NCBI GenBank assembly: GCA_951406725.2 | Contig: OX597841.1 | Coordinates: 18,724,001-18,788,000, forward strand | Origin: Octopus vulgaris | Lineage: Eukaryota | Reading direction: 5' to 3' | DNA length: 64,000 nt | Part shown: positions 9,772-51,483 of the stretch, in pieces | Numbering within the stretch: position 1 is the stretch's first letter | How the letters are laid out: every line of letters begins with the position of its first letter | Made by a program: the position numbers and the translations under genes | Notes under the pieces: generated by a model | Told to the model about the DNA's origin: nothing | The model's input: only the letters and a program-made list of their open reading frames with translations | The model's database searches: none

Positions 9772-11781
9772 CACTTTATTTAAAGCAGCAGAAAATTCAA
9801 CAAAATCTGTTACTCTGAGTTTCTCGTTGCCGTTCATCAGACAGTTTTTGCTAGAATGGAACCGATATATCAATTCAATCTAGACTCTTACAAACGCTAC
9901 ACTTTTAAAAAGAAATGGACTTGTTTGATTGGCCCTTTAGAAAAAACGGTCAATCTTCGAGCGATAAACAAAAAGGTCAAAAATATATGTATATATATAT
10001 AAAAATCTTATAAAAATTATAAAATTCGAGGAAAAAACCTTACATTGAATAAACTACATAATGACATTAATGAAGAAAGTATAATTAAAGCTTAGAAATT
10101 AAACCTATTATAAATATTACACTGCAATACATATTTAAGTTAAAGCGTACATATATATATCAACATACACAGAAGGATGCGTGCAAACGCCATACATATA
10201 CAGGCATATAAATATAAATCTGAAATATACACATAAATGCATGCGTACATATATGTACACAATCCATCTCGCACGCAATTTAAAATCATCTATGTAGCGA
10301 TTCTCATATACTGAGTAAGGGGGGGGACGAAAGAAAGGAAGAGAGAGAAAAAGGAACGAAGAAGGGGGAAGGAAAAAAGAAAAAGGAGGGTTGGGGAAAA
10401 AAACGAAATAAGACAAAATTATGTATACAAGCTATGTAACGGCATTATTGACATGTATGGAGACATGTATACAAATACACAAGCTCGAATGGATACATAC
10501 ACATACAGTCGTGTATATGTGTGCTTAAGCACAAACATACGTCCACTTACACATACACAGATACGCATGCTTACAAATACATATCCATGGCTATACACAT
10601 ACTTATATAAAAATTCTAATTTTTGACAACATTGCTTTTTTTAAAGAAATGGGTGCAATAATAAAAAATATATACGAAAGACATATAAAATAAAATATAA
10701 CATCCTATTTTGGATCATCTATAAAAAATCAAGGTAATCCTATACAATACAATAACTTGAAATAAAAAGTCGAAGGTTTTTCCTAATGTATATGTCGAAA
10801 CATAAGACTTTGCTATACGGATTAAAATCTGTATAACGCCGAACAAAATACATTGTAGCGCTCACAGCTCAAGAGTCAAAATCAAAATTTCAAAAATCAA
10901 AAATACAAAATATATACTCTATCCATATGGTATATTTATATTCGACATTTTAAATTTAGCCGCGTGCCTACATAAGTTCATTAGCTCACTTCTTTGATTC
11001 AAAGAAGTATTGTCTTTGAATAAAATGTACATTTTTTCTAACAGGCAAAGTTTGCACTTGAAATTATTTTTGTATGCTCCATGCCTGTATGGTGCCGCCC
11101 TGTCCAGAATGCTCCATGTCACGTTGAAAGGTGGGGTTTCCTTTTCTTTTAGTTCCCAGACATATTTTGCTAGGCTGGTCCTCTTCCTATTCTCTGGGTA
11201 TTTAAATGAATTTTTATGAGAATAAAATCTTGTTTTAAATGAATTCTCTGAAGCCCCTGTGTATGTCTTGTATTCCGATGAGCCTTCTACTTGCACCTTG
11301 GCTCTATAAACTACTCCTTTCACTAGACATATCCCTTCTAACGGACAGGAGCTTTCGTTTTTGAAATTGCATTTCTTAATGGGCTCGGCAACATGTCTAA
11401 TCTCAATTAGCTTCCTATTATGCTGGCTAATGTAAGAGGCGAAATTTCTGCAACAAGAATAGCTAACATTCAGGGTTCTTCTATTAAATATCCTATAGAA
11501 TTTATGACCCTGCTTAAAATGCTTAGAGACTAATCTCAAAAATTCCTTACCTATATTAGTCTTTACGGCCAAATTGAAAGCCGGGTTGAACCACAAAACT
11601 TTCCTGGTCCTAGTTCTTCGTGCAGCATTATTATCAGCATTAAGCTGGTTGTATTGGATCTTCTCAGAGAATCCACTATTCTTTAATGCGCTATCGTAAT
11701 AAGGTGCAGCATTATGGAATGCTGCCTCGTCCGAAGAAATTGAAGATATTCTTCTACCTACATTGCTGACTAAGTTCCTAA
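9772..11781 (-). mobile_element. 5'-truncated Penelope-like element (Naiad-like): RT thumb/linker, GIY-YIG endonuclease and long 3' UTR
   Basis: ORF ~11781-10919: [44 protein letters not shown]...[37 protein letters not shown]. The 3' end has a hammerhead motif and AATAAA, then (TA)n. Confidence 0.9.
9807..9844 (-). ncRNA. Minimal type-I hammerhead ribozyme motif
   Basis: Minus strand: ctgt-CTGATGA-acggcaacga-GAAAC-tcaga-GTA-acag. Stem I ctgt/acag; stem II cg/cg closing GCAA. Confidence 0.75.
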
Positions 11782-12419
11782 GGATAAATGAATATATGAA
11801 TATAAATATATATAATATATATGAATATATGAATATAAATATATATAAATATATACATAAATACATATATATATATATATATATATATATATATACTGAG
11901 AGATAAATATAAATATAAATACATACATATATATATATATATATATATATATATGTATGTATGTATATATATATATAGAGAGAGAGAGAGAGAAAAGAGA
12001 GAGAGCATGTGAGAGAGAGAGAGAGAGATGTAGGTACAGGCTTGTGTGTGTATATGCTTATATATATATATATATATATATATATATACATACATACGTA
12101 GATATATACATAGACATACGCATATACATACGTATATTACATGTATACAAATTTAGCCATATACATGTAGATATGTGTGCATTTTGTATTTATTGTGTTG
12201 GGCCTCTTTTGATAAAGAGTGTGTTAAAAGTGACTTTGATGCAGTTTAAATATGAATGACACTATATGAATTAAGTAAAATCAGAGTCTGGGATTGCTAG
12301 CAAAATGACCCTCCCAAAGTGCAATAATTGCTACTGATCTATTTAACTCCTAAATGTTATTTCCATATATATATATATATATATATATATATATATATAT
12401 ATATATATATCCTCCTCCT

Positions 12420-13700
12420 CATTATCATCATCATTTAATGTCCGCTTTCCATGCTAGCCTGGGTTGGACGATTTGACTGAGGTCTGGCAAACCAGATGGC
12501 TGCACCAGGCTCCAATCTGATCATGAGATGTCCTACCTAACGCCAACCACTCCGAGAGTATAGTGGATGCTTTTACATGCCACTGGCACGAGGGCCAGTT
12601 TGGTGGTACTGGCAATGGCCATGCTCAAATGGTGCTTTTTATGTGCCACCTGCACAGGGGCCAGTCCAGCGGCACTGGTAATGACCTCGCTTGAATGTTT
12701 TTTTTTATGTGCCACCAGCACAAGTGCCAGTATATAATATATATATATGTGCGTGTGTATTTGTGAAGACCTGTTGAACTGCGTGAAATCATGGTTGTAG
12801 ACGATGCCAGTTCCACCTGATTGGCACTTGTGGTGGTGGTATGTAAAAAGCACCATTTGAGTGTTGGGCCTCATGGAGACAGTGACGGGCAACCGAGACC
12901 TTAGGTGATATACCGTGCTTGTGTTGACTTGTCAACCCACGTGAGACCATAGTGGTGGCCAATGCCGCTGTCAGATTATTGGTGCCCCTGCCAGTGACAT
13001 ATAAAAGACACCCACTACACTCTCAGAGTGGTTGGCATTAGGAAGAGCATCCAGCCATAGAAACCTTGCCAGATCAGATTGGAACCTGGTGCAGGCCCTA
13101 GCTTACCAATTTTCAGTTAAACCTTCCAATCAATGCCAGCATAGAAAGTGGACTTTAATTAATGATGTTGACATTTATATATATATATATATATATATAT
13201 ATATATATATATATCGTCATCATCATCATCGTTTAACGTCCGTTTTCCATGCTAGCATGGGTTGGACGGTTCGACCGGGGTCTGGGAAGCCAGGAGGCTG
13301 CACCAGGCTCCAGTCTGATCAGGCAGTGTTTCTATGGCTGGATGCCCTTCTTAACGCCAACCACTCTGTGAGTGTAGTGGGTGCTTTTTATGTGCCACCG
13401 GCATGGGTATCACAACTACATTTTCCATTTGGCATTTATTTCGATGTTGATGTACTTGACTCAATAGGTCTCCTCAAGCACACCAGGTCACCCTACAATC
13501 CAAGGTTAGCACAGCAGGCCATCCTGTGAGCCATGAACTCACTTTATTTGTCGGGCCTTCGCAGTCACAGCATATCTCCAGAGATCTCGGTCTTTCGTCA
13601 TTGCATCTCTGAGGCTCAACGTTCGAAAGTCATACTTGACCACCTTATTCCATGTCTTCCTGGGTCTACCTCTACCCCGGATTCCTTCGTAAGGGCAAAC
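12420..13700 (-). mobile_element. RTE-clade LINE 3' fragments and related (GAT)n-tailed repeats
   Basis: RGRGRPRKTWNKVVKYDFRTLSLRDAMTKDRDLWRYAV is a typical RTE C-terminus. Recurrent catcatcatc-tttaacgtccg..ccatgctagc terminal sequence. Confidence 0.75.
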
Positions 13701-50132: not shown

Positions 50133-50254
50133 ATATATATATATATATATATATATATATATATATATATATATATATATATATATATGGCGGTGCCCCA
50201 GCATGGCCACAGCTCATAAGCTGAAACTGGAATCAATCAATCAATCAATATATA

Positions 50255-51483
50255 TACTAAGTAATTAAGGGTTTAGCAACGAATTGCCTCACCAACACAC
50301 CGAATTTAGAAATAGCAGTCAAAGAGATATAGCTATTCCTTCTACTAAAAGGGGGATCTCAGTAAAAACACAGCACTTGAAAGGCAAACACAGACAGGTA
50401 AGAAAGAAAGAATGAAATGACGGCAATCTATCATACAATTTTAAGTTACCTACGGACGTACGTTTCGAGATCAAGTTTTAGGAGAGCATAAGAATTAGAA
50501 AATTCTACTTTACCCAAACTTCTTCTCTCATCGGCGCAGGATACTACAATTATGAATAATTGTATATTAAATTTTGAGATACTAGAAGGCATCATCTCAA
50601 CTCAGTGTCAGAGCGAGCCAAAGCATGACCAGTACCACGAAATTCAAAGTTTGAATGAAAGTTTGTGTCACCAGCCCCCTTCCACCCGCGTGTAGCCAAG
50701 ACAAAATGCTGCGGTCACTTACTGGGATAAAATATGGTTATCAGTAATAATAAAGGGTGAAATTAATTAATTAGGAATAATTATCAATTACACCAAGTAG
50801 ATTTCGGCATGTAAAAGCCCCATTCGAGGAAAATTTAAGTAATACTAAGTAATTAAGGGTTTAGCAACGAATTGCCTCACCAACACACCGAATTTAGAAA
50901 TAGCAGTCAAAGAGATATAGCTATTCCTTCTACTAAAAGAGGGATCACGCGGGTGGAAGGGGGCTGGTGACACAAACTTTCATTCAAACTTTGAATTTCG
51001 TGGTACTGGTCATGCTTTGGCTCGCTCTGACACTGAGTTGAGATGATGCCTTCTAGTATCTCAAAATTTAATATACAATTATTCATAATTGTAGTATCCT
51101 GCGCCGATGAGAGAAGAAGTTTGGGTAAAGTAGAATTTTCTAATTCTTATGCTCTCCTAAAACTTGATCTCGAAACGTACGTCCGTAGGTAACTTAAAAT
51201 TGTATGATAGATTGCCGTCATTTCATTCTTTCTTTCTTACCTGTCTGTGTTTGCCTTTCAAGTGCTGTGTTTTTACTGAGATCCCCCTTTTAGTAGAAGG
51301 AATAGCTATATCTCTTTGACTGCTATTTCTAAATTCGGTGTGTTGGTGAGGCAATTCGTTGCTAAACCCTTAATTACTTAGTATTACTTAAATTTTCCTC
51401 GAATGGGGCTTTTACATGCCGAAATCTACTTGGTGTAATTGATAATTATTCCTAATTAATTAATTTCACCCTTTATTATTACT
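50255..51483. mobile_element. Penelope-type terminal repeat as a partial tandem plus inverted copy (fold-back)
   Basis: 50946-51483 is the reverse complement of 50255-50692 plus 50742-50842. 50841-50946 repeats 50255-50358. Confidence 0.9.
51098..51189 (+). ncRNA. Type-I hammerhead motif with CCGA core (mirror copy at 50449-50540, minus strand)
   Basis: cctgcg-CCGATGA-gaga..aagttt...aaactt..tctc-GAAAC-gtac-GTC-cgtagg. Confidence 0.75.

What the first reader, a model, noticed from the sequence alone, without database searches (positions are those of the whole stretch)
9772..51483. Five loci carry seven minimal hammerhead motifs in (TA)n-embedded Penelope-type repeats
Seen: type-I hammerhead folds at 9807-9844(-), 23130-23220(-)/23384-23474(+), 23770-23804(+), 42361-42398(+) and 50449-50540(-)/51098-51189(+). 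Each has different stem I/II sequences around the same core layout and a tiny stem III. Established: Penelope-like elements carry minimal hammerheads in their pseudo-LTRs, and such ribozymes can cleave as dimers. Inference: this genome holds several ribozyme-bearing, mostly non-coding Penelope-derived (retrozyme-like) families at high density. The only coding partners here are the GIY-YIG fragments at 10919-11781 and 45960-46440. Ribozymes in a host intron could also cut pre-mRNA.
Basis: partly seen in the sequence, partly recalled or inferred. Interest (0 to 1): 0.8.

Follow-up and report, generated by a model that had tools for sequence, protein, structure and literature searches.

The report
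Hammerhead tails of Penelope-like retrotransposons

Summary
The seven type-I hammerhead motifs lie at the stated coordinates; shuffles give about 0.1. They are five insertions from four lineages: loci 2 and 5 are inverted duplicates, and loci 3 and 4 are relatives. Locus 1 is a 5'-truncated Hydra-clade Penelope-like element. Other copies run on into the reverse transcriptase, and 46 of 68 homologous loci carry the same hammerhead with covarying stems. This is published (Craig 2021; Cervera 2014). No locus has the tandem same-strand hammerheads that define retrozymes; only locus 5 hints at a 588-nt non-coding unit. The endonuclease fragment at 45998-46440 has no hammerhead beside it, and no host gene was detected. 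The scan noted both the Hydra-type and the rewired motifs before, on other DNA of this genome. Cleavage is untested.

The parts
9773..11787 (-). Locus 1: 5'-truncated Hydra-clade PLE copy between (TA)n tracts
   Evidence: PMC8557442 section 11
10919..11782 (-). Open frame of 287 aa: RT thumb end, linker (second Cys of CxCX5C is Phe here) and C-terminal GIY-YIG endonuclease
   Evidence: (55% to a 713-aa protein, E 1e-99)
9807..9844 (-). Type-I hammerhead 1: stem I CUGU/ACAG, basal A.A plus 2-bp stem II, stem III CUC-A-GAG, predicted cut 9811/9810
23121..23626 (.). Locus 2: head-to-head inverted pair (arms 23121-23295 and 23309-23483); right arm runs on about 140 nt to (TA)n
23130..23220 (-). 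Type-I hammerhead 2a, long stem II
23384..23474 (+). Type-I hammerhead 2b, predicted cut 23468/23469
23690..23904 (+). Locus 3: 215-nt stub of a very abundant family
23770..23804 (+). Type-I hammerhead 3 (C at core position 4; U in 22-34% of family depth), predicted cut 23800/23801
42289..42495 (+). Locus 4: 207-nt stub related to locus 3, between (TA)n tracts
42361..42398 (+). Type-I hammerhead 4 (U at core position 6 instead of A; may be a dead copy), predicted cut 42393/42394
50254..51482 (.). Locus 5: inverted plus partial-tandem insertion; 537-nt unit on +, and on - a 203-nt tail joined through 51 nt to the first 439 nt of the unit (period 588 nt)
50449..50540 (-). Type-I hammerhead 5a
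51098..51189 (+). Type-I hammerhead 5b (C at position 4); 6-bp stem I register cuts after GUC at 51183/51184, 3-bp register at 51179/51180
39454..39513 (-). Missed eighth motif: hammerhead blocks in S-G-C order (stem I 7 bp, stem II 4 bp or split, stem III 4 bp), predicted cut 39508/39507
37542..37684 (-). Second copy (97% over 144 nt) of the S-G-C repeat, stem III 3' strand damaged
18275..18539 (.). Fold-back stub of the same repeat superfamily, core worn
51518..51660 (+). Worn relative of the S-G-C repeat (intact CUGAUGA, G block changed, S block absent)
45998..46440 (+). Frameshifted C-terminal GIY-YIG fragment with CX4CxxC linker (Neptune/Nematis type), no hammerhead beside it; not part of the five loci

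Best explanation
The seven motifs are type-I hammerhead folds that likely mark the 3' ends (pseudo-LTRs) of five Penelope-like retrotransposon insertions, of which locus 1 still carries the C-terminal endonuclease of a Hydra-clade element. Shown: motifs, families, high copy number, (TA)n ends, clade marks and stem covariation for locus 1. Inferred from published PLE biology: an active element is transcribed as a tandem pLTR-ORF-pLTR RNA; two hammerheads would pair through their palindromic stem III and cut as a dimer, perhaps protein-assisted; the GIY-YIG endonuclease nicks (TA)n; reverse transcription starts near the 3' end and often stops early, leaving short stubs (loci 3, 4), longer truncated copies (locus 1) and inverted or partly tandem pairs (loci 2, 5). 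The single copies in this window are likely inert passengers.
For: Seven motifs against about 0.1 by chance. Locus 1 frame: 23 relatives of 518-740 aa, best 55%, with the Hydra marks RW[K/R], DK[T/S], CxCX5C, CxxC and CxH, no CCHH. Its hammerhead has the same stem I and stem III stem as published Hydra-2_aMil. In 3 of 4 runs contigs continue past 11787; the X3 letters read INKDSNHPP by my hand translation, the RT thumb motif. 46 of 68 homologous loci have a sense hammerhead behind the frame, 2 antisense, 0.05 expected. With core-only anchoring, 95-98% of stem cells pair against 51-73% with shuffled partners, 0 of 2000 reaching it. In the families of loci 2 and 3 most listed stem variants keep pairing, position 17 varies among U, C and A, and G23462A (16-45%) makes stem III a perfect palindrome. 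Single motifs and opposite-strand pairs 100-700 bp apart are described in PMC4209133.
Against: No coding sequence is linked to loci 2-5 in the window, and no genome was held to look for it, so their PLE origin rests on anatomy. One search is unphased, showed 40 of 53 rows and no two-sided compensatory change; two listed variants break a predicted pair (A23406T up to 36%, A23802T up to 10%). The 68 loci include near-duplicates and share ancestry, which inflates both counts. Four motifs fold no better than shuffles (z -0.3 to -1.3); only locus 5 reaches -2.3. Published min-HHRs cleave weakly even as dimers (PMC4209133), and hammerhead mutants did not affect insertion in vitro (PMC11167929).
Confidence: 0.82

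Rival explanations
1. One or more of loci 2-5 belong to non-autonomous, non-coding families (retrozymes or SINE-like parasites) copied by PLE enzymes from a unit-length, possibly circular RNA; locus 5 would be a 588-nt unit. This can hold for some loci alongside the main explanation.
For: At locus 5 the minus strand joins the unit's 3' end directly to a 51-nt leader and the unit's start, repeating 105 nt at a period of 588 nt; no Pfam match in its frames. The family of locus 3 is covered deeply over only about 200 nt. Animal retrozymes are reported as non-autonomous PLE derivatives (10.64898/2026.07.22.740005).
Against: No locus has two same-strand hammerheads and no tandem array overlaps a locus. 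Two 5'-truncated copies of a coding element in partial tandem give the same junction. No tRNA-type A plus B box was found at loci 2-5. The stretch laid is bounded by skipped simple repeats, so family length is not shown.
Confidence: 0.3
2. The motifs act on host RNA: they sit in an intron and cut the pre-mRNA.
For: None direct. Loci 1, 3 and 4 are single copies that a read-through RNA would carry.
Against: 207 of 209 complex frames of 50 codons or more outside the duplicated block gave only RT, zf-RVT and Pif1 matches at or near cut-off. Single min-HHRs did not cleave (PMC4209133). At loci 2 and 5, 91 of 91 and 92 of 92 motif bases pair with the antisense twin in the predicted fold. Short exons would be missed.
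Confidence: 0.04
3. Chance matches in AT-rich repeats.
For: Four of five motifs fold no better than shuffles; the descriptor was relaxed at core positions 4 and 6.
Confidence: 0.01

Closest known systems
Hydra clade of Penelope-like elements (Craig et al. 2021, PMC8557442; read: passages, section 11, supplement part 2 of 59 and supplement searches)
   Same: C-terminal GIY-YIG without CCHH, CxCX5C-type linker, (TA)n insertion, 3' type-I hammerhead with a basal stem II mismatch and 3-bp palindromic stem III. An octopus family, Hydra-1_Obim, is already listed.
   Different: Locus 1 has a different hammerhead from Hydra-1_Obim and a 1.15-kb 3' region, so it is another family; its stem II has only 2 bp.
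Minimal PLE hammerheads (Cervera and de la Pena 2014, PMC4209133; read: parts 1-2 of 4). Lunse et al. (PMC5785218) was not held and is known here only from a citing review.
   Same: Type-I layout, extra nucleotide after A9, palindromic 15.2-16.2, mostly single copies, some opposite-strand pairs, many families per genome.
   Different: Loci 2 and 5 have about 60 nt in stem-loop II. The C4 and U6 core changes were not in the parts I read; the unseen paper and supplements may list them.
Animal non-LTR retrozymes (Cervera and de la Pena 2020, PMC7229834, passages; Li et al. 2026, 10.64898/2026.07.22.740005, parts 1-2 of 5, supplements closed)
   Same: Non-coding, low-GC repeats with type-I hammerheads and a PLE link.
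   Different: Defined by tandem units that each hold a hammerhead; none of the five loci shows that.
Type-SGC hammerheads (Eckert et al. 2023, PMC10085705; read: section 13 and passages)
   Same: For 39454-39513(-): block order S-G-C, full core, short linker (1-2 nt; typically 3 in the paper) between stems I and II.
   Different: Published examples come from metatranscriptomes, not genomes of known organisms. Here the strand before GAAA can also pair upstream, which would split stem II.
Naiad PLE 3' ends (PMC8557442 supplement; 'HHR_half_core')
   Same: Two octopus Naiad records show the same S-G-C order, with compensatory changes in stems I and III and in the upstream helix (read by eye).
   Different: No Naiad coding sequence is linked to the window copies; the paper reports no canonical hammerhead in Naiads.

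Membership tests
Type-I hammerhead (PLE minimal type) | Core CUGANGA / GAAA / NUH with stems I-III in C-G-S order | tested here: met
   7 of 7; canonical core in 3 of 7 (loci 1, 2a, 2b), C4 in 3 (loci 3, 5a, 5b), U6 in 1 (locus 4)
Type-I hammerhead (PLE minimal type) | Short palindromic stem III able to pair between two copies | tested here: met
   duplexes of -1.7 to -9.8 kcal/mol
Type-I hammerhead (PLE minimal type) | Stem covariation | tested here: met
   Locus 1 type. Loci 3 versus 4: stem I differs on both sides. Locus 2: one-sided changes only. Locus 5: not tested
Type-I hammerhead (PLE minimal type) | Site-specific self-cleavage | not testable with these tools
   Needs in vitro transcription
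Hydra-clade PLE (locus 1) | C-terminal GIY-YIG without CCHH; CxxC and CxH around the conserved E and N | tested here: met
Hydra-clade PLE (locus 1) | CxCX5C-type linker | tested here: inconclusive
   CxC plus a downstream C in 8 of 8 aligned relatives; the window copy has Phe for the second Cys
Hydra-clade PLE (locus 1) | RWK and DKT motifs in an upstream RT | tested here: inconclusive
   Absent from the truncated copy. In 8 aligned relatives RWK in 5 (RWR in 2 more) and DKT in 7; family contigs continue into the thumb
Hydra-clade PLE (locus 1) | (TA)n insertion and 3' canonical hammerhead | tested here: met
Hydra-clade PLE (locus 1) | Placement in an RT phylogeny | not tested
   RT core is missing from the window
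EN+ PLE (loci 2-5) | Linked RT and GIY-YIG frame | tested here: inconclusive
   None in the window; no genome held
EN+ PLE (loci 2-5) | Inverted or partial-tandem insertion with unequal 3' ends | tested here: met
   Loci 2 and 5; loci 3 and 4 are single stubs
Animal non-LTR retrozyme | At least two consecutive units each with a complete hammerhead | tested here: not met
   0 of 5 loci; other genomic copies not seen
Animal non-LTR retrozyme | Family is non-coding | tested here: inconclusive
   Not met for locus 1; open for loci 2-5
Animal non-LTR retrozyme | Monomeric circular RNA | not testable with these tools
   Only contigs were served
Type-SGC hammerhead (39454-39513) | Uninterrupted S, G and C blocks in that order with stems I-III | tested here: inconclusive
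   Order, core, stems I and III met. Stem II has 2 G.U in 4 pairs and competes with a perfect 5-bp upstream helix that covaries in Naiads
Type-SGC hammerhead (39454-39513) | Self-cleavage at the predicted site | not testable with these tools
   Bench test
Naiad PLE (39326-39570 repeat) | N-terminal GIY-YIG, CxC domain, C-terminal RT | not tested
   No frame beside the copies; only the RNA layout matches

The most novel reading that the evidence does not exclude
This animal genome carries two hammerhead systems side by side: known dimer-type type-I motifs, and a knotted S-G-C hammerhead (39454-39513, minus strand) with a full stem III that could cut as a monomer and is the 'missing' ribozyme of Naiad retroelements. 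It would be the first non-circularly permuted ribozyme family in an animal genome.
Probability: 0.6. Interest if true: 0.72.

Novelty: new member of a known kind. Interest (0 to 1): 0.35.

Why it matters
For the finding as written, little: hammerheads in PLE ends, many families per genome, (TA)n targeting and inverted stubs are all in print, including an octopus Hydra family. What it adds is one more Hydra-clade family, long stem II variants, and a natural C4/U4 core pair within one family that could test how much core change a dimer tolerates. The missed S-G-C motif matters more. If it cuts, Naiads do have a ribozyme, hammerheads become a near-universal PLE trait, and a topology known from environmental RNA enters animal genomes. 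I did not find this in print (searches: open-access library only); this scan has noted it on other DNA.

Tried and rejected
Whole genome: none held, so no genome-wide count and no family models were possible. Rfam: no match at gathering score; the E-value list was filled by microsatellite matches to miRNA models. Pfam did not recognise the two GIY-YIG frames or five full-length relatives. Repeat finder output for direct repeats was swamped by an (AAT)n array. Expression: no RNA holder listed; run X13 is only guessed to be RNA, so its cover is not used. Summed depths are not copy numbers and were not converted. A relaxed descriptor added no type-I motif. tRNA-type promoter boxes were not found at loci 2-5. 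Look-ups of earlier findings by sequence returned nothing. Exact window motifs were absent from the Craig supplement; line breaks could hide matches. PMC5785218 was not held. The 45998 fragment as a partner was rejected (no core nearby). A Naiad assignment for it was rejected because its closest long relative has the RT upstream. 'tgtattttag' just before the core at locus 2 looks like a splice acceptor, as in D. virilis; untested. Rows dropped: 11 of 79 loci with under 150 nt behind the frame; 41 of 68 without the fixed 7-nt stem III layout and one duplicate; one misfit row (L049) was kept. Two of 209 frames (55484-55846, 55850-56209, copies of a Pif1 fragment) were not scanned.
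Full report
Setting. The window is 38% GC, rich in simple repeats and mobile-element fragments. It looks like octopus DNA; that rests on my recall of an octopus SINE and on earlier scan notes, not on a call that names it. No whole genome was held.

Observation. In 180 dinucleotide shuffles the mean was 0.05-0.12 and the maximum 2. 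The motifs are real. They are five insertions, because loci 2 and 5 are inverted duplicates, and four lineages, because loci 3 and 4 share stem II, stem III and a 3' block while stem I differs on both sides.

Locus 1. The frame 10919-11782(-) matches 23 longer proteins among 1094 candidates, best 55%. These have an RT followed by a GIY-YIG domain. Aligned with 8 of them, it shows the marks that Craig et al. give for the Hydra clade: CxCX5C-type linker, no CCHH, CxxC and CxH near the end, and in the relatives RWK and DKT. Contigs from four runs cover the whole 2 kb (301-5489 contigs laid). Many end on (TA)n at 9773, and in three runs they continue past 11787 into what I translate by hand as the RT thumb motif. 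So this is a 5'-truncated copy of a coding family. Its hammerhead shares stem I and the stem III stem with published Hydra-2_aMil and differs from the octopus family Hydra-1_Obim. Of 79 homologous metagenome loci, 68 had 150 nt or more behind the frame; 46 of these carry a sense hammerhead, 2 an antisense one, against 0.05 expected. Anchoring on core letters only, 27 of 68 matched the same layout. Across 27 distinct rows including the window, stems I, II and III were 95, 98 and 96% paired, against 51, 73 and 65% with shuffled partners, and 0 of 2000 shuffles reached the observed values. The rows are related, so this is not a probability. The basal stem II mismatch at locus 1 is the clade norm (unpaired in 21 of 27).

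Loci 2 and 3. Laying four runs on 23330-23906 gave 12,353-36,416 contigs, so both are abundant families. In the locus 3 family, U replaces C at core position 4 in 22-34% of depth, well above the 0.3-11% seen at neighbouring CpG sites, which suggests a canonical subfamily. Position 17 varies among U, A and C. CpG decay hits core G8 and G12 in 2-11%. In the locus 2 family, A23443G, C23450T and T23420C keep pairs, and G23462A makes stem III a perfect palindrome. A23406T (up to 36%) and, at locus 3, A23802T (up to 10%) break pairs. The table is unphased and showed 40 of 53 rows, so two-sided compensation is not shown.

Locus 5. A 537-nt unit on the plus strand faces, on the minus strand, a 203-nt tail joined through 51 nt to the unit's first 439 nt. 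This fits the inverted and partial-tandem insertions described for PLEs. It also fits a 588-nt non-coding monomer; one locus cannot decide. Its best register has a 6-bp stem I, a GUC site and an 8-bp dimer helix of -9.8 kcal/mol.

Retrozyme and host-cleavage claims. Retrozymes are defined by tandem units that each hold a hammerhead; 0 of 5 loci meet this. The 45998-46440 fragment has a CX4CxxC linker, its closest long relative has the RT upstream, no core lies beside it, and it is duplicated at 61450 within a 5.7-kb copy that follows an N gap. No host exon emerged from 207 of 209 frames. At loci 2 and 5 a read-through RNA is predicted to pair the whole motif with its antisense twin.

Mechanism. 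Shown: motif, family, ends and covariation. From papers: minimal PLE hammerheads do not cut as single copies and cut weakly as dimers; one is protein-assisted and dispensable for insertion in vitro. Inferred: the motif was kept by selection on active tandem elements, where two copies pair through stem III, and the window copies are by-products.

The missed motif. Earlier scan notes on rewired hammerheads led me to list all half-cores. At 39454-39513(-) the blocks lie in S-G-C order with a full core. A descriptor for all six orders found only this hit; 1 of 100 shuffles gave any hit and 0 of 100 an S-G-C hit. The descriptor was written after I had seen the motif, and its stem III limit excludes the seven type-I motifs. 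Related, worn copies lie at 37542-37684, 18275-18539 and 51518-51660. In the Craig supplement two octopus Naiad records end with the same order (the records are identified from the following headers and list order). Read by eye, stem I is CUGUCC/GGACAG here and CUGCCC/GGGCAG there, and stem III is CACG/CGUG here and CCA/UGG there. The strand before GAAA pairs upstream in both (GAAGG/CCUUC; GACACC/GGUGUC). So stem II may be split rather than simple, as earlier notes propose. Type-SGC ribozymes cleave in vitro but were found in metatranscriptomes. I found no paper placing them in Naiads or animal genomes. The fold is not the predicted minimum-energy structure (z -0.95), which a pseudoknot-free program cannot give anyway.

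Verdict. Observation confirmed, interpretation partly supported. The finding as written is a new member of a known kind. The overlooked S-G-C motif is the part worth a bench test.

Noticed in passing
window 39454-39513 (-), with 37542-37684 (-), 18275-18539, 51518-51660 (+), 34686-34730 (+): Repeat superfamily with hammerhead blocks in S-G-C order; one copy is intact and matches the layout of published octopus Naiad 3' ends.
   Followed up: partly
window 42917-48629 and 58288-64000: 5.7-kb duplicate at 99.7% identity starting right after the 100-N gap at 58188-58287; may be an assembly artefact or a recent duplication.
   Followed up: no
window 45998-46440 and 61369-61810: Frameshifted GIY-YIG fragment with CX4CxxC linker and a 69-nt internal duplication; closest long relative has an upstream RT.
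   Followed up: partly
window 22190-22995, 55359-56209, 42692-43240: Helitron-like Pif1 helicase fragments; locus 2 is inserted at what looks like a Helitron end (end motif recalled).
   Followed up: partly
window 6719-8600, 24002-25896, 35400-37100: Three broken LINE-type reverse transcriptase remnants (RVT_1, zf-RVT).
   Followed up: no
window 23380-23389: A pyrimidine run ending in AG forms the 5' strand of stem I at locus 2, recalling the intron end at helix I in D. virilis Penelope.
   Followed up: no
window 23824-23832 and 42424-42432: A block TTCCTGAGCG about 25 nt behind the hammerhead is conserved between loci 3 and 4 and in family contigs; it could pair with the 3' strand of stem II.
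   Followed up: no
window 43458-44095, 57767-58187, 28503-30107: Tandem arrays of 166, 184 and 20 nt without hammerhead matches.
   Followed up: no
window 12985-13407: A further worn fold-back repeat (79% self-complementary) without a hammerhead core.
   Followed up: no
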